Shown here in pieces: positions 3,213-38,760 of a stretch of 64,000 nt of DNA. Every line of letters begins with the position of its first letter. Within the stretch, counting starts at the first letter, position 1. Source of the stretch: a candidate division WOR-3 bacterium. GTDB lineage: Bacteria; Hydrothermota; Hydrothermia; LBFQ01; DSFT01. The translations under genes were made by a program, and so were the position numbers. The stretch spans positions 6,099 through 70,098 of the forward strand of contig JBDRXL010000005.1 of the NCBI GenBank assembly GCA_039802865.1, in the 5' to 3' direction. The notes under the pieces were generated by a model that was not told the DNA's origin, did no database searches, and worked only from the letters and a program-made list of their open reading frames with translations.

Positions 3213-4136
3213 ATGCTAAATTTAAAAGATGAAATTATAAAACTGAAAAAGAAATTAAATGCGGTTATTTTAGCACATAATTACCAAATTCCTGATGTTC
3301 AAGATGTAGCAGACTTTGTAGGAGATAGCTTAGAATTATCAAGAAAAGCGAGTGAAACAAATGCAGATATTATTGTATTTTGTGGAGTTATGTTTATGGC
3401 AGAAACTGCAAAGATATTAAATAAGAATAAAAAGGTATTAATTCCAGATTTAAATGCTGGTTGTTCCTTAGCAGATTCAATAAATTTAGAACAACTAAGA
3501 AATTGGAAGAAAGAGCATCCAGATGCGGTAGTGGTATGTTATATAAATACAAGTGCAGAAGTTAAAACAGAATGTGATTATTGTTGCACATCTTCAAATG
3601 CTATAAAAGTTATAAATTCAATTCCAGAAGATAAGGAAATTTTATTCTTACCAGATATGTATCTTGGAATGTGGATTAAAAGACAAACAAAAAGAAATAA
3701 TATACATATATGGCCTGGCGAATGCCATGTCCATGCGGGTTTTAAATATGAGGATTTAGTTAATAAGATGAAAGAACATCCAGATGCAGAAGTTATGCTA
3801 CACCCAGAATGTGGTTGCACTACTCAATGCTTATATTATTCTAATGGAAATTTAAAAGTTTTATCTACAAGTGGAATGATTAGAAATGCAAAGGAAAGTC
3901 CATATAAAAAATTTATTGTAGTTACAGAAACTGGAATTTTATATCCCTTAAAGAAAGCAAATCCTGAAAAGGAATTTATACCAGCAGATGAAAACGCTGT
4001 TTGTAAATATATGAAAATGATAACACTTGAAAAGGTTTATGAATCACTATTAGAGCTTAAATATGAAGTTGTTTTAAGTGAAGAAGTGATAGAAAAGGCT
4101 TATATACCAATCAAAAGAATGCTTGAAATAAACTAA
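3213..4136 (+). CDS. nadA: Quinolinate synthase
   Basis: LAHNYQ, GDSLEL, CGVMFMAE, GCSLA, YINTS, CHVH, HPEC, CKYMK. Confidence 0.95.
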   Translation: MLNLKDEIIKLKKKLNAVILAHNYQIPDVQDVADFVGDSLELSRKASETNADIIVFCGVMFMAETAKILNKNKKVLIPDLNAGCSLADSINLEQLRNWKKEHPDAVVVCYINTSAEVKTECDYCCTSSNAIKVINSIPEDKEILFLPDMYLGMWIKRQTKRNNIHIWPGECHVHAGFKYEDLVNKMKEHPDAEVMLHPECGCTTQCLYYSNGNLKVLSTSGMIRNAKESPYKKFIVVTETGILYPLKKANPEKEFIPADENAVCKYMKMITLEKVYESLLELKYEVVLSEEVIEKAYIPIKRMLEIN

Positions 4137-19991: not shown

Positions 19992-20065
19992 TGGGCGCGC
20001 CCCGACTTGAACGGGGGACCTCCATCGTGTGAGGATGGCGCTCTTACCAGCTGAGCTACGCGCCC
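19992..20065 (-). tRNA. tRNA-Val(CAC), CCA not encoded
   Basis: GGGCGCG/CGCGCCC acceptor, GCTC/GAGC D stem, CCATC-CTCACAC-GATGG anticodon arm, GTTCAAGT T loop, discriminator A. Confidence 0.95.
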
Positions 20066-21180
20066 TTTTCTTTTAATTCCCTTAATAACTCATCCATTTC
20101 TTCCTTTATATGCCAAGGCATTTGAGCATAAACATCTTCAAATGTTGTTTCAGGTCCAGGTAAAGGTCTCTTTTCTGCTTCATCAATAGCTTTATTTAAT
20201 TCATCCTCAATCTGCTCATCTAGTTCTTTTTCCCATTCTTCATTCCAAATTCCAAGCCTTTGTAAATATAATCTTGCTCTCTTAATTGGATCCCATGTTT
20301 TTTGCCAATACTCAAGTTCTCTCGGATCTCTATACCTATCTGCTTGATCTGCTGTTGAATGAGAACCATATCTATAAGTTAAAGCTTCAATTAATACAGG
20401 TTCTTTGTTATGGGCTTTTTCAAATGCTAATTTAGTAGTAGCATAAACTGCCAAAAAGTCATTCCCATCAACATAATAACCTTCCATACCATAAGCAATT
20501 GCTTTAATTGCTATATTTTTAGAAGCATATTGTCTTTTAACAGGAACAGATATTGCCCAGTGATTATTTTGAACAAAAAATACAACTGGCGTTTTAAATA
20601 CCCCTGCCATTGTAAGAGCAGAATGAAAATCACCTTCCGCTGTTCCTCCATCTCCTACATAAACAATTATTGCTTCATCCTTTTTTAAATAATTTATAGC
20701 CATTCCTATACCAACCGCTTGTGGAAGCTGATTTCCAACAGGACTAGAAATAGTTATAATTCTTAATTTTCTCATACCCCAATGGACTGGCATTTGTCTT
20801 GCTTTATTAACTTCCATTCTACCCATTACTTGTGCAAACATTTCAACAAGTGGATAACCTCTTACAAGATAAACTCCATGCTCTCTATGAGCAGGAAATA
20901 TCCAATCATTTTCAGGCACTGCATAACCACTTGCAACAGTTGCAGCCTCTTGACCGGCAACTTCTACATAAAATAATGCTTTTCCAGAACGAGTTAAAAA
21001 CATTCCCTTTCTATCAAAAGCCCTTGTTAATTTCATATAATAATATAATGTCTTTAAATCTTCCTCGGTAAGTCCTATATCTTCTGGTGTAAAGTCAAAT
21101 AAAGGCTCTCCCTCACTTGATATAAATCTTATAGGTTCATCTGTAAATGGTTGAATATAATTTAAAGTTTTTTCAGTCAT
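20056..21180 (-). CDS. pdhA: 2-oxoacid (pyruvate or branched-chain) dehydrogenase E1 alpha subunit
   Basis: GQEA, GNQLPQAVG, GDGGTAEGDF..N (ThDP motif), YRYGSHSTAD. Confidence 0.85.
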   Translation of the reverse strand: MTEKTLNYIQPFTDEPIRFISSEGEPLFDFTPEDIGLTEEDLKTLYYYMKLTRAFDRKGMFLTRSGKALFYVEVAGQEAATVASGYAVPENDWIFPAHREHGVYLVRGYPLVEMFAQVMGRMEVNKARQMPVHWGMRKLRIITISSPVGNQLPQAVGIGMAINYLKKDEAIIVYVGDGGTAEGDFHSALTMAGVFKTPVVFFVQNNHWAISVPVKRQYASKNIAIKAIAYGMEGYYVDGNDFLAVYATTKLAFEKAHNKEPVLIEALTYRYGSHSTADQADRYRDPRELEYWQKTWDPIKRARLYLQRLGIWNEEWEKELDEQIEDELNKAIDEAEKRPLPGPETTFEDVYAQMPWHIKEEMDELLRELKEKGA

Positions 21181-21195
21181 AGTGAAAATTATAAA
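21171..21195 (-). repeat. Direct repeat copy (-10 box, start codon and first codons of pdhA); partner at 23223-23247
   Basis: Minus strand TTTATAATTTTCAC-TA-TGACTGAAA vs TTTATAATTTTCAC-AT-TGACTGAAA, 23/25 identical. Confidence 0.8.
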
Positions 21196-21202
21196 GTAGA
21201 AT

Positions 21203-21761
21203 CTAATAAATCAATTTAAGTGTTTGTTTAAAAAATTGTTCTAAACTCATTTCACTTTTTATGAAATGTTTCAAAGAAGGTGTTAAATCTGTTTTATCTA
21301 TTCCATCACTTATTTTAACCTTGTTTAAATAAGACTCTATTCTCCTATTACTATAACCACTGGTACCAGGGCCTTTTCCTAAAATTTCTTCAATAATAAT
21401 CCGGTGAATGAAAAAATTTTTTCTATCTTCAAACAACTTAATATACTTCCCAGCGTTTAATATTTCCTCTTCTTTCAAAATAAAATCCAATACCAAGAGA
21501 CTTTATATTAGCACATTCTCCCAAAAGATTTTCAAAAAAATTATTAACATTTTGTTTATAACTCAATAGTAATATCAACCCGCTTAGGATAGTATCTTCC
21601 ATCTATAACTATCTCTTTTCCATTTAAGTAATTTACTTTATACCTATTGCCAAGAATATTCTGATAAGTTTCACCTAACCATGTATGAACTGGCCTAATT
21701 TTTTCTAAGATTCAGCCAAAGCTTTAAAAAAGCCTTCTTTTCTTATTTTTACATTGTTCAT
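21203..21761 (-). pseudogene. Degraded restriction endonuclease gene
   Basis: ATG 21761 gives MNNVKIRKEGFFKALAES then TAG at 21705. Later fragments (YYPKRVDITIE; SYKQNVNNFFENLLGECANIK) lie in different frames. Position directly after the MTase remnant. Confidence 0.55.
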
Positions 21762-23232
21762 AATATACCTCTTCTAAAAAACTATCTATAATATCTTTAC
21801 TTTCCTCTTTCCTTAAAAAATTTACTTGTTCTTGACTTAAATGCGGAATACCAAAGTTCATTAAAAATAACTTAGAATAACTTTTCCACCCACCCTGATA
21901 ACTTTTTGAAACATTTTCAATATAAATTTTCATAATTTTTGAATTTAAAATTTTCCTTAATAAGTATAAATCAGTAAAAGGCTCTATTTTAGGAAAAATT
22001 CCATATCCACTATAAAATGTTGTATCTTCTTTTTCACATACTACAAATGTTGGATTCAAAGCCATAGGTGGGGTCAATATTTTCCTTCCAAACGTTGTAT
22101 TTATTCCCTGTGTTCTCCCAAAAGCGAACCATGTTTCATAAGTTTTCTTACCTCTATCTCTATTTAAAAGTATATCTTTTACTCATCTTCCTGTATAATT
22201 TCGTAAGCCTTACTAACTTTTTTATATGGGAAAATTACTGACTTTTATTATCTCTTTTGTTATTTCCTTCTCTATCAAAAATTTTCTTCCATTGAAAAAC
22301 TTAACAAAATAATCACCTTCTTCAACTACATTTTCAATTATATAAATCTCATCTTTTAAAGTGGCAAGTCCTACTCTAATGTCCGCTATGTCTTTTAACC
22401 TATAAGCTTGATTTTCAATAGCTTGGATAATATCTCTATTACTTAAAACCCATATATTATGATTTAGTTCATCAAAGTATATCCTTTCACTATCCAAACT
22501 ATCCAATTTTTGAATCTGACTGGGATTTTTTACTTTTTTAAATATGAAATAGTTTTTCTTTCTCTTTGAAATTATTATTATAGAAGTATAAGCTGATACT
22601 TTGTCAAATACCTGAAAGTGGTCAAAATCAATTACCTCTTCAATTAGTTTGTTTTCCTGCAAAAATTTTCTTAAATTTTTCCTGCATAAGAGGTAAAATA
22701 ACTATTGGGTGTTATATAACCCAATTTTCCATTTTCATCTATTAATTCTATACCTAATTCTATAAATGGTATAAATATATCTGTATCTCCCTTTATAAGT
22801 TTCCAATGTTTTTTTATTAAATTTCGTGTATCATCATCCAAATTCTGTATTCTTACATATGGCGGATTTCCTACAACCGATTGAAATTTTTTATTTCCGA
22901 AAATTGATTTTATAAATGATTTATCTAAACTATTTTTCAAAAACGACAAGAGATAAAAGCTCCTTTGCTAACTATACCGCTTTTGAATCAATATCTATTC
23001 CAAAAATGTTATTTTCAACTATTTCCTTATAACTTTTTCCCGTTTTTTGCTTTAATTTAAATAATGCATCAAGAAGAAAAATTCCATTTCCACAAGCAGG
23101 GTCTAAAACCAAAATATCTTTTGATTCATTTTCCACTATTGTTTTTCTGTTTATATAATCAACTACGAATAATGGAGTATAAACTATTCCCTTTTGTTTT
23201 CTATGTATTTTTAATAATTTTCTTTCAGTCAA
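21724..23232 (-). pseudogene. Fragmented N6-adenine DNA methyltransferase (Eco57I/TaqI-like)
   Basis: Track fragments: 22972-23232 (GIVYTP, DPACGNGIFL, GIDID), 22671-22949 (VVGNPPY), 22222-22662 (DFDHFQVF, IRVGLAT), 21724-22077 (LNSKI, GGWKSY), in different frames. Confidence 0.85.
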
Positions 23233-23247
23233 TGTGAAAATTATAAA
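23223..23247 (-). repeat. Direct repeat copy supplying the -10 box and TTG start of the MTase remnant
   Basis: See partner 21171-21195. Confidence 0.8.
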
Positions 23248-23437
23248 TCTCTCTTAAAATGGATTTTGCTTTTAAACGAACTATTGGATATTCGTGATCG
23301 GAAAGCTTTTTGAAAATTTCTAAAACTCTTATATCTCTCATAAAAGTTAAGGCTTCCATTATTTCTAAAATTAACATAGGATTTTTTTCTTCATTTACTA
23401 TCTGCTCTAAATATGGCAAAGCTTCATAGAGATTCAT
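23225..23437 (-). CDS. Small HEAT-repeat-like protein
   Basis: EALPYLEQIVNEEKNP...EALTFMRD.RVLE...LSDHEYPIVRLKA pattern. Confidence 0.55.
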   Translation of the reverse strand: MNLYEALPYLEQIVNEEKNPMLILEIMEALTFMRDIRVLEIFKKLSDHEYPIVRLKAKSILREIYNFHID

Positions 23438-23545: not shown

Positions 23546-26096
23546 CTAGTTTTTAATAAATTTATAAGTTAATTGCTTATTATCTTTGCTATATGCTTTT
23601 AGAATGTATATTCCAGGTTTTAAGGATTTAAGGTTAATTTCTATGTTGTTAGTTTTAAAAATGTTTGAATAAATTAACTTGCCATCAAGAGAGTAAATTT
23701 TAATAGTTATAGGAGTTAGAAAGTTATTTAGATTAAGGGAAATTTTTGATTTATAATAATAAACTTTCTTCTCTGAAATTTTTGATAAAAGATCACCAAA
23801 CTTAGAGATAAAAGCATCATAATTACCTGCATTAGCTCCTTGATAATAAGCATTATTACTAGGACTATATGTTGGAATGTTAGTTGATAATGTATAACCT
23901 ACTACAAAAACATTACCCTGTGTATCTGTTATTATAGAACGAATAAAATCATAAGAACTTCCTCCAAAATAAGTAGCCCACACTCTTTTCCCCAAACTAT
24001 CAAATTTTAAAATAAAAGCGTCAGAATAATAATAACTTCCATCATAGTTGCAATTTCCATCAGTTCCACAATCTCCATCAAAGAAACTGCCATCCATAGG
24101 GTTAGAAACTGGAAAATTACTTGATATTGTCCATCCTCCTATAAACAAATTCCCGTTAATATCAGTAGTAAGAGAAACCGGATTATCAGTGCTTCCATCT
24201 CCTCTACTTCCTCCATAATATGTAGCCCATAACCTAACACCCGAATTGGAAAATTTTAAAATAAAAACATCAGAACTACCGGCATTACTTCCTTGATAAT
24301 AAGCACCATTCTGAGGATCTTTTGTTGGAAAATCACTTGAATTAGTCCATCCTGTTAAAAATATATTACCATTTATATCTGTTTTAATTGAAAAAGCTCC
24401 ATCAATGTAATTTCCTCCATAATAAGTAGCCCACAATCTTTGACCTGAATTATCAAACTTTAAAATAAAAGCATCAGAATAGTAATTATATCCATCATAA
24501 CCACAATTTCCAACATTACCACAAGTGCCATCAAAATAAGCACCATTTTGAGGGTCAAAAGTTGGGAAATTCGTTGAAATAGTATAACCAGTAACAAAAA
24601 TTTCACCACTATCATCTATAGCAATAGAAAAAGCCCTATCTTCATTACTTCCCCCATAATATGTAGCCCATAATAAAGCTCCCGAATTACTAAATTTTAG
24701 AATAAAAGCATCATAATAATTTGGGCAGCCTCCACAAGTACTATCATAATAAGCACCTGAGCTACTTTGAATTGGAAAATCAGAAGAAGAAGTTGCTCCA
24801 ACTAAAAAAACATTACCATTTATATCAATTGAAATAGAATAACCAATATCACCAGAAGTGCCCCCATAATATGTAGCCCATAATCTAACACCCAAATCAT
24901 TAAATTTTAATATAAAAACATCATGAGAACCACCCCCACTAAGATTACCTTGATAGTAAGCTCCATTTTGAGGATTATGTGTAGGAAAGTTACTTGACCA
25001 AGTCCATCCCGTTAAAAACACATTGCCACTATCATCAGTTGTAATAGAATAAGCATAATCAGAAAGACTTCCACCATAATACGTAGCCCATAGCCTTACT
25101 CCGGAATAAGTAAATTTTAATATGAAAGCATCATAATTACCTGCATTAGTTCCTTGATAATAAGCATTATTTCCAGCATCCTGGATTGGAAAATTAGTTG
25201 AAAATGTGCTTCCTATCGCAAATACATTACCATTAGCATCCGTTGTGATAGAATAACCAAAATCATGATAACTTCCACCATAATAAGTGCTCCAAACAAG
25301 AGCATAAGGGTCAATGAGTAAAGATTTGTTTTTGTCATAGTTAGAAATATCAAAGGTTAATAGGTTATTTTCTTTTAGTCTATAAATTACTTCTACTATA
25401 TCATTCCCTTGATACCCCACTAAATTCCCATCCTTTATCTTCCCAATTGGTGTTGATAAAATTATTGATTTTCCATTATCTGCTAATTCTATATCAGCAT
25501 ATTTTACTCTTAACTTTATTTGTGATATCAACTGGGGATTTTTTATCTCAAATTCATGATGAAAATTCCCATTATCATCATACCTAAATATCCAATTTAT
25601 TCCTGGATATACATCCTTTATTATAACCTTCCTATAACTCTTTACAAATAATATCCCATCTGGACAGTGAGCTAAATAGAAGTTCTCATATCCTGGTAGT
25701 TCATCTTGATAGATGATATTTTCTTTTTTTTATTTTCCCTCCTATTAGTTCATAGTCTATTCTGGCGTAGTGTAAAACAGAATTTTCAGGTTTTTCTTCT
25801 ATGTGTGGTAATATCTCTTTATCTTTTGAAACTTCTTTTTTCTCAATATCATATATCACATAACTTAATCCACTTTCAGTTATGAATATGCCCATATTTC
25901 CATTTCTTGAATAGAAAACAACATTTTCAGCTATCTTTCCATCCATAGTGGCAAGCTGTCCTTTATTTGGTGTGAAACCTTTATAGAGATAGGGATAGGA
26001 GTTTAGCCATTCTTTTATAATAACAGGGTCATAGGTATTTATAACATTACCAGCTATGGTTGATACAAAAGATATCAACAAGTTAAAAACTATCAT
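23546..26096 (-). pseudogene. Secreted beta-propeller (SBBP-type repeat) protein with T9SS-like tail, split by one extra A in an A8 run
   Basis: Track ORFs 25701-26096 and 23546-25531 join into one frame if one A is removed at 25724-25731. N-terminal FTPNKGQ, seven (L/V)W(A/S)TY(Y/F)GG repeats, C-terminal IYSLDGKL..PGIYIL..KFIK. SD aggagg upstream. Confidence 0.8.
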
Positions 26097-26194
26097 GATT
26101 TTACCTCCTTTCTACTTTTTAAAATAATTAACATTGCTAACTTGAAAATTTTAAAGCAAATTTTTTATTTTTGAAAAATTAATAAAAACATCAA

Positions 26195-27496
26195 TTAATT
26201 GTTTAAAACTTTTTCTTTCAATCTTTTTCCATTATATTTAACTTTTTCAACATCTATATTCTTAAAATCTCCTTTTTCCATTATAATTTTCCCATTTATA
26301 ATAACACTTGAAACATCCAAGCCATTAGCACTATAAACAATTGCAGAATAAGGGTCATATATTGGCATTAAATGAAAGTTATTTAAAGAAATTGTAATTA
26401 AATCAGCTTTCTTACCTATTTCAATACTTCCAACTTTATTATCAATTCCAAGAACTTTTGCTCCATATATTGTAGCCATTTTTAAAACATCTTTTGCACT
26501 TGCTACTTTTGGATCCATTAAATAAACTTTATGAATTAAGGCACAACTTCTCATCTCATCAATTATGTCTAAATTATTATTTGAGGCAGTTCCATCAGTT
26601 GCAATACCAACATTTATTCCCTTATTTAACATCTTTACAATAGGAGCAACACCACTTGAAAGCTTCATATTACTTTGTGGATTATGAGCAACACCTACAT
26701 TTTTCTCTTTATAAATTTCAATTTCTTCATCATCCAAATAAACACTATGAGCGGATATAAATTTATGCTCTAAAACACCAATTGAATTTAAAAATCTAAC
26801 TGGGGTTAAATTATACTTATTTTTAATAATTTCAACTTCTGCTTTTGTTTCTGCTACATGCATATGAATTGGAATATTATATTTCTTAGCAATTTCAAAA
26901 CCTTTTAAAATTAATTCTTTTGAACAAGAATAAGGAGCATGTAAGCAAAGCGTAGGATATATAAATTCATCATTTAAATAATTTTTTATAAAACTTTCAA
27001 CAATTTTAATCCCATCTTCTGGCTTTTTGAATGATGGAGTTGGAAAATCAATTAAACCCTCACCTAAAAACGCTCTAATTCCTATTTCTTTTGAAACTTC
27101 TGCGGTTATTTCTTGGAAAAAATACATATCATTATATGTTGTTGTTCCTGTTCTAATCATTTCACATATTGCTAACTCACTTGCAAGTTTTATAAATTCT
27201 CTATCAACCGCTCTATTTTCAGCAGGCCATATATAATTATTTAGCCAATCCATTAAATCCTTATCATCTGCAAACCCCCTAAATCCTACCATAGCAATAT
27301 GCGTATGAGTATTAATAAAACCTGGAAGCAATATATTTGGTCTATCATCAATTATATAATCTACGTCTTCTTTTAAATTTTCTAACTTTCCAAATTTCAA
27401 AATTTTATCATTTTCTATAAGAACAAAACCATCCTCTATAACTTCATCATCTTTATTCATCGTTAAGATATAATCTGCTTTTATAAGTATCTTCAT
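26195..27496 (-). CDS. mtaD: MTA/SAH deaminase-like amidohydrolase
   Basis: PGFINTHTH, LHAPY, HMHVAET, AHSV, HNPQSNMKL, ATDG..SNN; ATG 27496 preferred over the track start. Confidence 0.8.
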   Translation of the reverse strand: MKILIKADYILTMNKDDEVIEDGFVLIENDKILKFGKLENLKEDVDYIIDDRPNILLPGFINTHTHIAMVGFRGFADDKDLMDWLNNYIWPAENRAVDREFIKLASELAICEMIRTGTTTYNDMYFFQEITAEVSKEIGIRAFLGEGLIDFPTPSFKKPEDGIKIVESFIKNYLNDEFIYPTLCLHAPYSCSKELILKGFEIAKKYNIPIHMHVAETKAEVEIIKNKYNLTPVRFLNSIGVLEHKFISAHSVYLDDEEIEIYKEKNVGVAHNPQSNMKLSSGVAPIVKMLNKGINVGIATDGTASNNNLDIIDEMRSCALIHKVYLMDPKVASAKDVLKMATIYGAKVLGIDNKVGSIEIGKKADLITISLNNFHLMPIYDPYSAIVYSANGLDVSSVIINGKIIMEKGDFKNIDVEKVKYNGKRLKEKVLNN

Positions 27497-27529
27497 AAAT
27501 GAAATTTTAAAGTATAAAATTTTCAACTT

Positions 27530-28627
27530 TTGGAAAAGATACTTCACTTACTCATTAAATATGCTGAAAGTGAGAACTTTAAGGGTTATGACCCTTATGA
27601 CGCTTTAAATAGTCCCATTTTAAGAGCAATTGGCTTTAACAAATATATAAGAATTTTATTTACTCAACTAATAAAACACTCACCATTTAATTTTAGAAAA
27701 TTACTTCTTATAAAAAAAGAGCATAATCCCAAAGGTCTTGGATTATTTTTATCAGTTTTTTCAAAAATAGAAGACTTGGAAAATTATTATATTATTAAAA
27801 AATTGCTAATAAATTTAAGCTCAAAAGGATATAGTGGATACTGTTGGGGTTATAATTTTCCTTGGCAAAGTAGAGTTTTTTATTTAAAACCATATACTCC
27901 AACAATTGTAAATACTTCATTTATAGCCCATAGCTTTTTGGATGCATATGAAAAATTCAAAAATAGTGAAGATTTTCAAATAGCATATTCAACAACTAAC
28001 TTTATTTTAAATGATTTAAATAAATATGAGGATGATGAAATTTTAGTATTTTCATATACACCTATTGATAATTTAAAAGTTTTTAATGCAAGCTTACTTG
28101 GGGGTTCAGTTTTAGCAAGAATTTATTTATTAAATGGAAATGAATTATTTAAAAATTTGGCTCTTAAATGTGGATTATTTGCTTATAAATTTCAAAATAA
28201 AGATGGAAGCTGGTTTTATGCCCCAAACATTAAATATATTGATAATTTTCATACCGCATTTAATTTAATTGCTTTAAGATGGATATATAAAGCTACACAG
28301 GATAAAAGAATTTTAGAAGCAATTGAAAAGGGTTATGAATTTTATAAAAAATATTTATTTACAGAGGATTTCTTACCAAAGTATTATCACAATAAACTTT
28401 ATCCAATTGATATTCATTCATATGCAACTTCTATTGTTCTTTTTTGTGAATTTGGTGAAAAAGAAATTGCTAAAAAAATTCTAGAAAATGCATTAATTAG
28501 AATGTTTGATATAAAAAAGCACTATTTTTATTTTCAAGAGCATAAATTTTATAAAATTAAAATTCCATACATAAGATGGTCAATTGCTTGGATGGCTTAT
28601 GCTATTACTAATTACTTAACCAAATAA
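27530..28627 (+). CDS. Conserved hypothetical (alpha/alpha)6-barrel-like protein
   Basis: GYDPYDAL, WGYNFPWQSR, QNKDGSWFY, IDNFHTAF, YPIDIH, YIRWS; family typical of polysaccharide loci, activity not assignable. Confidence 0.6.
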   Translation: MEKILHLLIKYAESENFKGYDPYDALNSPILRAIGFNKYIRILFTQLIKHSPFNFRKLLLIKKEHNPKGLGLFLSVFSKIEDLENYYIIKKLLINLSSKGYSGYCWGYNFPWQSRVFYLKPYTPTIVNTSFIAHSFLDAYEKFKNSEDFQIAYSTTNFILNDLNKYEDDEILVFSYTPIDNLKVFNASLLGGSVLARIYLLNGNELFKNLALKCGLFAYKFQNKDGSWFYAPNIKYIDNFHTAFNLIALRWIYKATQDKRILEAIEKGYEFYKKYLFTEDFLPKYYHNKLYPIDIHSYATSIVLFCEFGEKEIAKKILENALIRMFDIKKHYFYFQEHKFYKIKIPYIRWSIAWMAYAITNYLTK

Positions 28628-35347: not shown

Positions 35348-36168
35348 AATTTCTAATTACAGGGGCTGGTGGATTACTTGGTTCTGAATTTAATAAAGTT
35401 GTTGTAGAGGAAAAATTAGCTTTAAAAAGAACTGATTTAGATATTACAAATTTTGAAGATGTTTATAAAATTGTAAAAAATTATAAACCAGATGTAATTA
35501 TAAATTGCTCCGCTTTGTCTAATGTAGATTATTGTGAGGAGCATTTTGATGAGGCAATAAATGTAAATGCAAAAGGAGTAGAAAATCTTTTAATTTCAGC
35601 TATTGAAAATAAATGTTTTTTAGTTCATTTTAGCACAGATTATGTATTTGATGGAAATAAAAACTCACCATATACAATTTATGATATTCCAAATCCTATA
35701 AATAACTATGGAAAAAGTAAGCTTATGGGTGAAGAAATTGTCAAAAATAGTAAATATGAAAATGTTTTGATAATTAGAACAAGTTGGCTTTTTGGAATTG
35801 GAAAAAGCTCATTTGTTAGTAAAATTTTAAATATGATAAATAATGAAGTAATTTATATGACGGAACAGATTTCAAATCCTACATATTCAAAAGATTTAGC
35901 AATAAGAGTTTATAAAATGATAAAACAAGGCTATAAAGGATTGTTTCATTTAACTGGGGCTTTAAGTGTATCAAGATATGAATTAGCAAAATATATTTTA
36001 GATATTGTTGGTTATAAAGGGAAAATAATAAAAGTAGAGAATTTTCCATCTATTGCAAAAAGACCAAGATATTCAAGCTTAGATAACTACCCCCTTGAAC
36101 CTTTAAGAGATTATAAAGTAGCAATTAAGGAATTTTTAAAGGAGTTTTATAATTTTAGAACTTTATGA
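35344..36168 (+). CDS. rfbD: dTDP-4-dehydrorhamnose reductase
   Basis: ITGAGGLLG, FSTDYVFDG, YGKSK, RTSWLFG, RPRYSSLD. Confidence 0.92.
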   Translation: MKFLITGAGGLLGSEFNKVVVEEKLALKRTDLDITNFEDVYKIVKNYKPDVIINCSALSNVDYCEEHFDEAINVNAKGVENLLISAIENKCFLVHFSTDYVFDGNKNSPYTIYDIPNPINNYGKSKLMGEEIVKNSKYENVLIIRTSWLFGIGKSSFVSKILNMINNEVIYMTEQISNPTYSKDLAIRVYKMIKQGYKGLFHLTGALSVSRYELAKYILDIVGYKGKIIKVENFPSIAKRPRYSSLDNYPLEPLRDYKVAIKEFLKEFYNFRTL

Positions 36169-36174
36169 ATAAGC
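36146..36174 (+). repeat. 29-bp perfect direct repeat, left copy
   Basis: tttataattttagaactttatgaataagc is identical to 38325-38353. Confidence 0.92.
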
Positions 36175-37583
36175 AAAGAGAATTTGGGATTCATCTTACT
36201 TCTACTGATATTTTTAGGGAATATATTTTGCCTGAAATTAAGGACGTGCTTTATAAATATACCTGGATAGATTTATTTGCTGGCGAAGGAAATTTAATCC
36301 TACCAATATTAGAGTTAATACCTAAGGATGAAAGAGTAAGCTTCTTTAAAGAGCATATTTTACTTTTTGATATTCAGCTGTAAATGGTTGAAAAGAGCAT
36401 TATAAATGCTATGAGCTATGGGATTCCTTATGAAATAGCTATGAAAAACATAAAAGTAAAAGATACATTATCTGATTATCCAGATTTAAGTTATCTTAAA
36501 TATCCACCATATCATATAACAAATCCACCTTATCTTTATGTGGGTTATATTTCAAAAAATTCTAAAAGAAATCTAAAGTATTTTTCTGGGTTAAATGAGG
36601 GTTATCAAGACCTATATCAGATTGCTTTAATGAATGATTTAAGGCATAACTTGGAAAGAATGATATATATTATTCCTACAAATTTCTTATTTGGTTTTTC
36701 CGTATCTAACAAAATTAGAAGAGATTTTCTTGAATTTTATAATATAAAAAAGGCAATTATTTTTGAAAGAAAAATTTTTGATTTTACTGGAACAAATGTT
36801 TGTATATGCTTTTTTGAAAGAAAACCTAAACCTTCAAGAGAACCAATTTCATTTAATGCTTTAAAAATAAATAGTAAAATTTTTGATAAAAAATATACCT
36901 TATATCCTGAAAATTCTTATAGAGCTGGAAGTGAATTTGAAGAATTTGTATCCCATTTCAAATCCAATTCACCTTTAAAAGTAAAGTTTTATTTAACCAT
37001 AGATGAGGTTGAAAAAAATCAGGGTAATAAGGAGGTTAAACTTTTAGATGCAAATAGCTTTCATAATGGTCGTTATCATATTATAAAGTGTTGTGTTAAT
37101 GAAAAGTTATATGAAAAATTGCAAAAAAATCCTTTATTTATAAGAACTTTGGATACAGGAAGTTGGAATGGAAGAGTGGGAATATATAATATTAAAGAGG
37201 TTTTTAATACTGATGGAATAGTGGTAACAAAAGAAAAATATCGCACTCATCCTATCCAAATTTTTATATCACCACAACTTTCATATGATGACTTGGACTT
37301 ATTGAAAAAATACTTCAATACAATGTTGGAATATTTTAGAAAAATAACTGATAGTGAGTTTTTAACAACTTTCAAGTATTCAGATTGTGATTATGTTAGG
37401 AAATACTTAGGATTATCACAGGCAGGAAAGTTAATAGAAACTTTTCCTATTCATTTAATGTCCTCTCAAAAAAAGCAAATGTTGAGAACTTTGTTGGAAA
37501 AGGGAGATATAGAAGGTATAAAGAATATTTTATTTGATTTCAAACATAAAAAACAAATTACCCTTTTTCAGGATTATGAATAA
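36165..37583 (+). pseudogene. N6-adenine DNA methyltransferase interrupted by one in-frame TAA
   Basis: 36165-36383 (DLFAGEGN, FDI) and 36384-37583 (TNPPY) are in the same frame, junction CTG TAA ATG. Confidence 0.82.
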
Positions 37584-38331
37584 ATGGATTGAAAAAAGTA
37601 TAAAATTGGCAAAAAGTGAGTTCTATCTGGATAAATTATTAGAGATATATCCACCAGAGGAAATTAGTAGAGAAAAACAAGTAGAGAGAGAATCTCCAAT
37701 TTTAAAAAGGCTCTTTCAAGAAAAGAATTGTAAAAAACTTCTTAGAGAACTTATACGCCTAAAGAAAATAGGGTTTAAATTTCCCATTGAAAATCCATAT
37801 ATTAGTTTTCTAAGTTATTATGAAGATGCTATTGACAAGAATCCAGAAACTATTAAGAAAATTTGTGAAAAGCTTTTTGAAATGAGTTATGATGAACTAA
37901 AAGATAGGTTGGAAGCACCAAAAAAGGCAAGTAGAAGAACTGGGCCAATGTTTAAATTGTGGCTTAGAAGTAAATTTAATTTTATAGATGTTAATGAATT
38001 TAGGAGAGCAAAGGGTATAGTTTTTCTAAATGGTGGAGATAAATTTTTAAAAGAATATGCAAAAAGTGAGTTAAAATGTAAATTCAAAGAATTAAGTAAA
38101 GGGTTGGACTTTATAGCAAGGGTTAAAAATAAGTATATAATTGGAACTGCAAAATTTATAACCGACATAGGTGGTTCTCAATCTAACCAATTTATTGAAG
38201 CATTAAGCTTAATAAAGGAAACGAAATGCTCTGAAAATATTATAAAAATTGCTATTATTGATGGTGCTCCTTGGTTAAATGAAAAAGAAAAAAATGAATT
38301 TTGTTTTAGTGCCTTAAACTATCCTTTATAA
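37576..38331 (+). CDS. Putative type II restriction endonuclease
   Basis: Coupled to the MTase stop; KGLDFIAR..YIIGTAKFITD.GGSQ, IAIIDG. Confidence 0.65.
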   Translation: MNKWIEKSIKLAKSEFYLDKLLEIYPPEEISREKQVERESPILKRLFQEKNCKKLLRELIRLKKIGFKFPIENPYISFLSYYEDAIDKNPETIKKICEKLFEMSYDELKDRLEAPKKASRRTGPMFKLWLRSKFNFIDVNEFRRAKGIVFLNGGDKFLKEYAKSELKCKFKELSKGLDFIARVKNKYIIGTAKFITDIGGSQSNQFIEALSLIKETKCSENIIKIAIIDGAPWLNEKEKNEFCFSALNYPL

Positions 38332-38353
38332 TTTTAGAACTTTATGAATAAGC
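38325..38353 (+). repeat. 29-bp perfect direct repeat, right copy (-10 box and first codons of the mutase subunit)
   Basis: Identical to 36146-36174. Confidence 0.92.
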
Positions 38354-38760
38354 CAATTAAGGTGTTGATTGGAAAGGTTGGTTTAGATGGTCATGATAGA
38401 GGAGCAAAAGTTTTGGCAAGGGCTTTAAGAGATGCAGGAATGGAAGTTGTATATAGTGGTCTTCATAGAACTGCAGAAGAAATTGTTCAGATGGCAATTG
38501 ATGAAGACGTTGATGTAATTGGTATATCTATATTATCAGGAGCTCATATGACGTATTTTCCAAAAATTCTAAAACTTATGAAAGAAAATGGTCTTGAAGA
38601 TGTTCTTTTAATTGGAGGAGGAATTATTCCAGAAGAAGATGCAAGAGAATTAGAAAATATGGGTGTTAATAAAATTTTTGGACCCGGAACTCCACTTGAA
38701 GAAATTATAAGTTATATTAAGAATTGGTATGAAAAGAAGAAATTAACAATTGTTAGATAA
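38344..38760 (+). CDS. Cobalamin-binding subunit of a methylmalonyl-CoA mutase-type enzyme
   Basis: [10 protein letters not shown] (DxHxxG), [20 protein letters not shown]. Confidence 0.92.

What the first reader, a model, noticed from the sequence alone, without database searches (positions are those of the whole stretch)
21171..23247. Second R-M cassette with the same signature: 25-bp duplication of the pdhA promoter and start
On the minus strand, TTTATAATTTTCAC-AT-TGACTGAAA (23247-23223) precedes the MTase remnant (TTG ACT GAA, MTE...). TTTATAATTTTCAC-TA-TGACTGAAA (21195-21171) precedes pdhA (ATG ACT GAA, MTE...). Identity is 23/25 and extends into coding codons, which promoter consensus alone does not explain. 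The diverged repeats and the heavily decayed cargo fit an older insertion than the 36-38 kb one (inference).
Basis: partly seen in the sequence, partly recalled or inferred. Interest (0 to 1): 0.72.

Follow-up and report, generated by a model that had tools for sequence, protein, structure and literature searches.

The report
Dead restriction cassette between duplicated gene starts
A long-dead restriction-modification gene pair lies just upstream of a pyruvate-dehydrogenase-type gene in an uncultured hot-spring bacterium (candidate division WOR-3), between two copies of that gene's 25-base promoter and start; this is a further, old example of a known way such selfish defence genes insert.

Summary
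The repeat is real. TTTATAATTTTCACTATGACTGAAA (21195-21171, minus strand) and TTTATAATTTTCACATTGACTGAAA (23247-23223) match at 23 of 25 positions.

The right copy is the native promoter and start of the pdhA-like gene. It is conserved in six relatives that have no cassette.

The two copies bracket exactly a decayed methyltransferase (Eco57I/TaqI_C type, 12 in-frame stops plus frameshifts) and a decayed small endonuclease. The left copy gives the methyltransferase its -10 box and first three codons.

The best reading is "insertion with long target duplication" of a restriction-modification unit (Nobusato 2000; Furuta 2010). Support:
- Intact homologous methyltransferases start differently.
- The same cassette family sits between duplicated panD starts in a relative, and two sister genomes hold the empty site.
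- This genome has at least four more insertions flanked by promoter or start duplications.

Caveats:
- Thirteen of the 25 bases match the lineage's very strong leaderless-promoter consensus.
- The realistic chance level is about 10^-3, not zero. One unrelated gene also matches at 23 of 25.
- No exact empty site (HEAT ORF directly followed by pdhA) exists; the nearest species has amidohydrolase directly followed by pdhA.

The cassette is fixed and equally decayed in all ten conspecific assemblies shown (the look-up read 23 contigs carrying the ORF), which fits an old event. This is an ordinary new member of a known kind.

The parts
21171..21195 (-). Right (native) repeat copy: the -10 box TATAAT, a 7-nt spacer, and ATG plus 7 nt of the pdhA-like gene
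   Evidence: The same CTTTATAATTTTCAyTATGAC.GA.AAA precedes pdhA in G001-G006.
20056..21180 (-). pdhA-like gene (dehydrogenase E1 component alpha, 374 aa), intact
   Evidence: Pfam E1_dh, E = 2.3e-86. Orthologues are 77-93% identical in same-family genomes.
23223..23247 (-). Left repeat copy (23/25). It holds the -10 box and the TTG ACT GAA start of the methyltransferase remnant. It also supplies the last codons and the TGA stop of the 70-aa HEAT-like ORF
   Evidence: Identical in 10 conspecific assemblies.
21748..23232 (-). Decayed gamma-class N6-adenine DNA methyltransferase (N6_Mtase / Eco57I / TaqI_C type). It has 12 in-frame stops, at least 2 frameshifts and internal deletions
   Evidence: Pfam hits on the fragments. 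59-64% identity to residues 65-595 of the intact G012 methyltransferase, in alternating frames. 4 TGA, 4 TAG and 4 TAA stops inside.
21203..21761 (-). Decayed small restriction-endonuclease gene of the same cassette family, spread over three frames with an internal deletion of about 37 codons
   Evidence: tblastn with the partner genes (presumed endonucleases, 217 and 238 aa) of G009 and G002 and the fragmented partner ORFs of G012: 21702-21233, motif NNFFENLLGECAN.
23227..23437 (-). 70-aa HEAT_2-like ORF, an orphan. Its C-terminus (..IYNFHID*) is read out of the left repeat copy
   Evidence: Weak Pfam HEAT_2 hit. Absent from 20 relatives. Present, and always followed by the methyltransferase remnant, in all ten conspecific places shown; 23 contigs carrying the ORF were read.
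23546..26096 (-). SBBP beta-propeller protein with a T9SS sorting tail. In this genome it is split by a 1-nt insertion at about 25731; in conspecific L042 it is intact at 849 aa. It belongs to the ~5 kb that is absent from the nearest species
   Evidence: A terminator-like hairpin lies at 23547-23530.
26141..26157 (-). Consensus promoter GCTTTAAAATTTTCAAG directly after the amidohydrolase gene, in front of the SBBP gene. It cannot be told apart from the generic consensus
26195..27547 (-). Amidohydrolase gene. In the nearest species (G003) its orthologue (86% aa identity) is followed after 35 nt by pdhA
36146..36177 (+). Left repeat of the younger Tsp45I-type cassette (31/32 identity to 38325-38356), used here as a comparison
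   Evidence: Empty site in G003.
38325..38356 (+). Right (native) repeat of the younger cassette: the promoter and start of the B12-binding-domain gene
   Evidence: Conserved in G001-G004 and G006.

Best explanation
A compact two-gene restriction-modification unit (methyltransferase, then a small endonuclease), with no promoter of its own, was inserted at the 5' end of the pdhA-like gene. The insertion duplicated about 25 nt of the target. This is the mode called 'insertion with long target duplication'. In this lineage those 25 nt hold a complete expression signal: an extended -10 box with no conserved -35 element, and a leaderless-type ATG. The downstream copy therefore kept pdhA expressed. 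The upstream copy gave the incoming methyltransferase a promoter, a start codon and its first three codons (MTE) as an in-frame fusion. The cassette later died: ATG became TTG in the upstream copy, and 12 stops, frameshifts and deletions accumulated. That state became fixed in the species.

Shown: the repeat; the native status of the right copy; the cassette content and its decay; the foreign N-terminus; fixation in the species; and mobility of the same cassette family by this mode in a relative.

Inferred: that the duplication arose in the same event as the insertion, and how the DNA was joined. My preferred joining mechanism, held at low certainty, is microhomology-mediated illegitimate joining. 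This could occur by homology-facilitated illegitimate recombination after DNA uptake, or by template switching. I prefer it to a transposase-type staggered cut.
For: - The repeats bracket only methyltransferase and endonuclease remnants. There is no room for, and no trace of, a mobility gene.
- The right copy, including C at -3, is the conserved pdhA promoter and start in six relatives whose upstream neighbours all differ.
- Homology to the closest intact methyltransferase (G012) begins at its residue 65, which is window position 23202. That is 10 codons after the TTG. Other intact homologues start MKKYK and MLKYK.
- At the junction register, pdhA reads ACTGAAA and the G012 methyltransferase reads TTTGAAA, a 5-nt microhomology.
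- The same methyltransferase-endonuclease family in G009 lies between two ~40-nt copies of the panD promoter and start. Both proteins there begin ML. G014 and G018 hold the single-copy empty site.
- The same genome has further cases: a 31/32 repeat around a Tsp45I-type unit, with the empty site in G003; a 36/36 repeat around an N6_N4 methyltransferase and an MjaI-type endonuclease; a 30/32 repeat around another N6_N4 methyltransferase unit; and a 28/29 repeat around a SAM-methyltransferase insert.
- A genome-wide scan finds only the two cassette-bracketing pairs at 2 mismatches or fewer.
- Furuta et al. 2010 (PMC2853133) describe this class and note that the repeats often span translation starts.
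Against: - Thirteen of the 25 nt match the generic promoter consensus.
- An unrelated gene start (contig C20) is also 23/25 identical to the pdhA 25-mer. Promoter pairs reach this identity at about 9e-4.
- No genome shows the exact pre-insertion state of HEAT ORF directly followed by pdhA. The nearest species lacks the whole ~5 kb, so the order of events is unknown.
- The repeat is shorter than the >30 bp used in Furuta's first screen.
- The left copy lacks the conserved C at -3.
- Two homologous cassettes, in G012 and G002, have no flanking repeat.
Confidence: 0.8

Rival explanations
1. There was no duplication. The methyltransferase gene simply had its own leaderless promoter of the lineage's very strong consensus type and happened to start M-T-E. 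The 23/25 identity would then be convergence plus chance.
For: The consensus GCTTTA[A/T]AATTTT[A/C]A occurs in front of about 500 genes. The C20 gene start TTTAAAATTTTCATTATGACTGAAA is equally close to pdhA. Pair probability is 8.9e-4, and I estimate about 0.6 such same-strand pairs within 9 kb genome-wide (my estimate from the counts).
Against: Both copies share the rarer TATAAT variant (10% of sites) and the gene-specific CAC spacer. The pair brackets the cassette exactly, as in four other insertions of this genome whose repeats are far beyond consensus. Intact homologues have other N-termini, and the closest one has 64 more N-terminal residues.
Confidence: 0.1
2. The duplication came after the insertion. 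The cassette first sat upstream of pdhA with its own start. Later, a short local duplication or gene conversion copied the pdhA promoter and start onto the methyltransferase, selected to drive its expression.
For: No exact empty site is available, so simultaneity is inferred only. The left copy is not in native continuity with its left flank here, nor at the 36-kb cassette, where G003 has 41 nt in place of 7.
Against: It needs two precise events at each of five or more loci. In G009 versus G014 and G018, and in G000 versus G003, the empty sites show insertion and duplication together, with no intermediate.
Confidence: 0.07
3. Site-specific integration took place at a promoter-like core. The repeats in both window cassettes begin with the same 11-mer, TTTATAATTTT, which would act as an attachment core for a recombinase encoded elsewhere.
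For: Both left copies start exactly after the conserved C at -3.
Against: The 11-mer is the generic promoter, with 175 copies. The repeats continue into gene-specific sequence that differs between loci. The other cassettes (C5:3812-5775, C2, G009) have repeats with different sequences and boundaries. No integrase lies in or next to any of the cassettes.
Confidence: 0.03

Closest known systems
Insertion of restriction-modification units with long target duplication (Nobusato et al. 2000, Gene 259:99; Furuta, Abe and Kobayashi 2010, NAR 38:2428, PMC2853133)
   Same: A methyltransferase-plus-endonuclease unit with no mobility gene. It is flanked by direct repeats that are single-copy at cassette-free loci in relatives. 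The repeat spans a translation start, so the target gene stays intact. Fusion of the methyltransferase to target sequence is also described there.
   Different: The repeat is only 25 nt; Furuta's first screen required more than 30 bp and the second more than 20. The cassette is long dead. The exact empty site is missing. The duplicated piece is a complete leaderless expression module, and the host is an uncultured WOR-3 lineage.
Homology-facilitated illegitimate recombination in naturally transformable bacteria (de Vries and Wackernagel 2002; cited from my own knowledge)
   Same: Integrase-free capture of foreign DNA, joined at a few bases of microhomology. Here there is a possible TGAAA microhomology at the left junction.
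   Different: Not tested here. Competence of this organism is unknown, and the classic products are replacements rather than duplications.
Transposon target-site duplications, including the long variable 19-26 bp duplications of Mycoplasma IS1630 (as cited in PMC2853133)
   Same: Direct repeats of target DNA of similar length flank the insert.
   Different: There is no transposase, no terminal inverted repeats, and repeat length varies from 25 to about 40 nt between loci.
Integron gene cassettes
   Same: Promoterless genes are placed behind a resident promoter.
   Different: There is no integrase, no attI or attC sites, and the promoter itself is duplicated at each insertion.

Membership tests
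R-M insertion with long target duplication (Furuta 2010 criteria) | The inserted segment contains both endonuclease and methyltransferase gene homologues | tested here: met
   Methyltransferase remnant at 23202-21748 and endonuclease remnant at 21702-21233.
R-M insertion with long target duplication (Furuta 2010 criteria) | The insert is under 20 kb and has no transposase, integrase or phage genes | tested here: met
   There are 2,027 nt between the repeats, fully accounted for by the two remnants.
R-M insertion with long target duplication (Furuta 2010 criteria) | Direct repeat longer than typical transposon duplications (more than 30 bp in the first screen, more than 20 bp in the second) | tested here: inconclusive
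   25 nt at 23/25, or 33 nt at 85%. This is above 20 bp but below 30 bp.
R-M insertion with long target duplication (Furuta 2010 criteria) | A related genome has the empty site with one copy of the repeated sequence | tested here: inconclusive
   Six relatives have cassette-free pdhA with one copy. But their left flank differs, and no genome has HEAT ORF directly followed by pdhA. Clean empty sites exist for the sister cases.
R-M insertion with long target duplication (Furuta 2010 criteria) | The repeat is not a dispersed repeat of the genome | tested here: inconclusive
   The 25-mer at 2 mismatches or fewer occurs at one further, unrelated site. The first 13 nt match the consensus shared by about 500 promoters.
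Transposon / insertion sequence | A transposase gene and terminal inverted repeats | tested here: not met
   No such ORF was found. The inverted-repeat scan shows only low-complexity pairs.

The most novel reading that the evidence does not exclude
WOR-3/Hydrothermia bacteria may have an integrase-free capture process anchored to gene starts. It would place promoterless defence cassettes in frame behind ~20-nt leaderless expression modules, with non-random boundaries. In this genome the repeat ends exactly at ATG+10 in three of four repeats that include a start (three of five with G009). Both left copies in the window begin right after the conserved C at -3. At least five such insertions occur in a 1.6-Mb genome.
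Probability: 0.1. Interest if true: 0.7.

Novelty: new member of a known kind. Interest (0 to 1): 0.33.

Why it matters
The finding adds an old, decayed example and, with its sister loci, a cluster of at least five examples in one small genome. These belong to a mode of restriction-modification gene mobility whose mechanism is still unknown. It also shows why this lineage tolerates the mode so well. A full promoter plus leaderless start fits into about 20 nt, so a 25-nt duplication both preserves the host gene and expresses the incoming methyltransferase. On the practical side, it is a warning for repeat statistics. In genomes with very strong promoter consensus, shuffle-based expectations overstate the significance of short repeats at gene starts.

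Tried and rejected
- **Genetic code 4.** Rejected: the ORFs tile tightly under table 11.
- **Exact empty site (HEAT ORF directly followed by pdhA).** The HEAT ORF is absent from 20 relatives. An exact-pattern scan of genome contigs found nothing. All ten conspecific places shown carry the cassette, out of 23 contigs read.
- **Reversed-pattern control for the 11-mer.** It is misleading, because the reversed word contains the under-represented AATATT. I replaced it with promoter-anchored statistics.
- **Flanking repeats around the homologous cassettes of G012 and G002.** None found.
- **Methyltransferase-only locus at C1:43921-45273.** No repeat seen.
- **Strain comparison for relaxed constraint.** The conspecific assemblies are too similar to be informative (0.34% divergence, 5 differences in the cassette). 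The comparison did show that the TAG at 22972-22974 is a recent GAG-to-TAG change.
- **HEAT ORF as a relic of the 65-aa N-terminal extension of the G012 methyltransferase.** No similarity by eye.
Full report
**Observation**

On the minus strand, TTTATAATTTTCACTATGACTGAAA lies at 21195-21171. It ends in the first 10 nt of a 374-aa E1-alpha dehydrogenase gene ("pdhA", 20056-21180; Pfam E1_dh, E = 2.3e-86). TTTATAATTTTCACATTGACTGAAA lies at 23247-23223. The two match at 23 of 25 positions. They differ only by TA versus AT, which turns ATG into TTG. Table 11 is the correct code, because the ORFs tile tightly under it. G+C is about 27% throughout. The genome is a 1.64-Mb metagenome-assembled genome of candidate division WOR-3 / Candidatus Hydrothermia, according to the record titles of its relatives.

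**What lies between the repeats**

The 2,027 nt between the repeats are fully accounted for by two dead genes.
- **Methyltransferase.** A gamma-class N6-adenine methyltransferase, with N6_Mtase, Eco57I and TaqI_C hits on separate fragments. It is 59-64% identical to residues 65-595 of an intact 601-aa homologue in genome G012. The alignment runs through alternating frames from 23202 to 21748. It contains 4 TGA, 4 TAG and 4 TAA stops.
- **Endonuclease.** A small endonuclease gene homologous to the 217-238-aa partner genes of that methyltransferase family. It spans 21702-21233 in three frames and has an internal deletion.

No mobility gene is present.

**Which copy is native**

In six relatives (four of the same genus, two of the sister genus) pdhA is preceded by (g)CTTTATAATTTyCAyTATGAC.GA.AAA. 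The gene upstream differs in almost every species: an amidohydrolase, a recO-like gene, an opposite-strand gene, or an EamA transporter. The right copy is therefore the conserved promoter and start of pdhA.

The left copy overlaps the last codons and the stop of a 70-aa HEAT-like orphan ORF (23227-23437). It also supplies TTG ACT GAA to the methyltransferase remnant.

Intact homologous methyltransferases begin MSLDRF... (with 64 extra residues), MKKYKQLGQVWTP or MLKYKFLGQVWTP. MTE is therefore not native to the family. At the junction register, pdhA reads ACTGAAA and the G012 gene reads TTTGAAA. This is a possible 5-nt microhomology.

**How surprising is 23/25?**

Window shuffles give zero expected matches, but this genome has an unusually strong promoter consensus. 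TA[A/T]AAT is followed 6-10 nt later by the ATG of a long ORF at about 500 sites. The flanks are conserved as a-G-C(75%)-T-T-TAAAAT-T-T-T-[A/C]-A, and there is no -35 signal. Thirteen of the 25 nt therefore follow this consensus.

Three further numbers set the realistic chance level:
- One unrelated gene start (TTTAAAATTTTCATTATGACTGAAA, contig C20) is also 23/25 identical to the pdhA 25-mer.
- Random pairs of such promoter/start 25-mers reach 23/25 with probability 8.9e-4.
- A scan of all 508 starts for a -10-anchored copy with 2 mismatches or fewer within 9 kb upstream returns only two pairs. These are this pair and the 36-38 kb pair, and both bracket restriction-modification cassettes exactly.

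The sequence argument alone is therefore worth about 10^-3. The context carries the rest.

**Context: a recurrent architecture**

1. **Window 36146-38356.** A 31/32 repeat flanks a methyltransferase (one in-frame TAA stop) and an open-reading Tsp45I-family endonuclease ORF. The right copy is the conserved promoter and start of a B12-binding-domain gene. The nearest species, G003, has the empty site: rmlD, then 23 nt, then CTTTATAATTTTAGAACTTTATGAATAGACC.
2. **Contig C5:3812-5775**, just outside the window. A perfect 36-nt repeat (AAGAAA plus ATG plus 27 more nt) flanks an N6_N4 methyltransferase and an MjaI-type endonuclease, in front of a pmbA/tldD-type gene.
3. **Contig C2:67317-69865.** A 30/32 repeat, covering the promoter only, flanks a 612-aa N6_N4 methyltransferase and a 213-aa ORF.
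4. **Contig C24:7638-8666.** A 28/29 repeat covering the promoter plus ATG+10 flanks a 1-kb insert that encodes a SAM methyltransferase.
5. **Genome G009** (a different family of the same order). The same methyltransferase-endonuclease family as the decayed cassette sits between two ~40-nt copies of the panD promoter and start. Both proteins begin ML. G014 and G018 hold the single-copy empty site.

In these cases the methyltransferase is the first gene and reads in the direction of the host gene. Its start lies in, or directly behind, the left copy.

**Population and age**

The look-up read 23 conspecific contigs that carry the HEAT ORF. All ten places shown have the order amidohydrolase, SBBP protein, HEAT ORF, methyltransferase remnant, endonuclease remnant, pdhA. 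Both repeat copies are identical in ten of ten of these. Only the TAG at 22972-22974 is polymorphic; it is GAG in L042.

The nearest species, G003, has the amidohydrolase (86% aa identity) followed after 35 nt by pdhA. The whole ~5 kb (SBBP, HEAT ORF, methyltransferase, endonuclease) is therefore lineage-specific, and the order of events is not resolved.

The 36-38 kb cassette, by contrast, is polymorphic within the species. Four of ten places carry a deletion derivative that keeps patchy 3' pieces of the endonuclease gene. Repeat identity, the load of disruptions and fixation all agree that the pdhA cassette is the older one.

**Interpretation**

This is an instance of "insertion with long target duplication" of restriction-modification units. 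That class was defined by Nobusato et al. (2000) and surveyed by Furuta et al. (2010). Furuta et al. note that the repeats often span translation starts or stops, which leaves the target gene intact, and that fusions with the methyltransferase gene occur.

The local twist is that a complete expression signal fits in about 20 nt in this lineage. A 25-nt duplication is enough to keep pdhA expressed and to express the newcomer.

The joining mechanism is inferred only. I favour microhomology-based illegitimate joining for three reasons:
- repeat lengths vary (25, 29-32, 32, 36 and about 40 nt);
- no transposase or integrase is present;
- there is a possible TGAAA microhomology at the left junction.

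A staggered-cut model cannot be excluded.

**Present-day function**

The left copy still has an intact -10 box, and no terminator-like site lies between it and pdhA. It may therefore add read-through transcripts. The TTG start fits loss of leaderless translation. Neither point was tested.

**Unexplained details**
- Both left copies in the window start exactly after the conserved C at -3. They carry A or T there, while the right copies keep the C.
- The repeat ends at ATG+10 in three cases.
- At the 36-kb locus the left copy is not in native continuity with rmlD when compared with G003.

**Earlier notes**

Earlier notes of this scan on other genomes describe the same class. I used them as leads only, not as evidence.

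Noticed in passing
whole genome G000; in the window e.g. 21181-21197 and 26141-26157: A very strong promoter consensus, a-G-C-T-T-TA[A/T]AAT-T-T-T-[A/C]-A, with no -35 signal. ATG follows 6-10 nt later at about 500 ORFs of at least 100 aa. I estimate this at roughly a third of the genes, which would then be leaderless or nearly so.
   Followed up: partly
G000 contig C5:3812-5775 (just upstream of the window start): A seemingly intact N6_N4 methyltransferase plus an MjaI-type endonuclease, flanked by a perfect 36-nt repeat. The repeat spans the start of a pmbA/tldD-type gene. The upstream gene and the endonuclease gene both end ..ENEEK* because both read into the repeat.
   Followed up: partly
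G000 contig C2:67317-69865 and contig C24:7638-8666: Two more insertions flanked by duplicated promoters. One is a 612-aa N6_N4 methyltransferase plus a 213-aa ORF in front of a gyrA-like gene. The other is a 74-aa ORF plus a SAM methyltransferase, with the repeat ending at ATG+10.
   Followed up: partly
window 36157-38165, compared with L056, L057, L062 and L063: Four of ten conspecific places carry a deletion derivative of the Tsp45I-type cassette. The join comes right after TTTATAATTTT and leaves patchy 3' fragments of the endonuclease gene. The cassette was therefore lost by illegitimate deletion, not by recombination between the repeats.
   Followed up: partly
window 36381-36383: The single in-frame TAA that splits the younger methyltransferase into 72 and 399 aa is shared by five of the six cassette-bearing conspecific places listed. 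The sixth (L059) also has the 72-aa piece.
   Followed up: partly
window 19992-20065: tRNA-Val(CAC) on the minus strand overlaps the last 10 nt of pdhA, including its stop.
   Followed up: partly
window about 25731: A 1-nt insertion splits the SBBP / T9SS-tail gene in this genome. Conspecific L042 has it intact at 849 aa.
   Followed up: yes
L033 (G009:C1) 1086-1106, 1455-1494 and 3641-3679: Three copies of CAACCTTAAAAT... lie in series: before a 111-aa ORF, before the methyltransferase, and before panD. This suggests two successive insertions at the same gene start.
   Followed up: partly
G000 contigs C17 and C15: CRISPR-type repeat GTTTAAATTCCACATAGTTCAGATAAAAC, seen in the repeat scan.
   Followed up: no
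whole genome G000: TTTTAATATTT, which contains AATATT, occurs 13 times, against 175 for its reverse, TTTATAATTTT. This may reflect avoidance of the palindrome AATATT as well as promoter enrichment.
   Followed up: no
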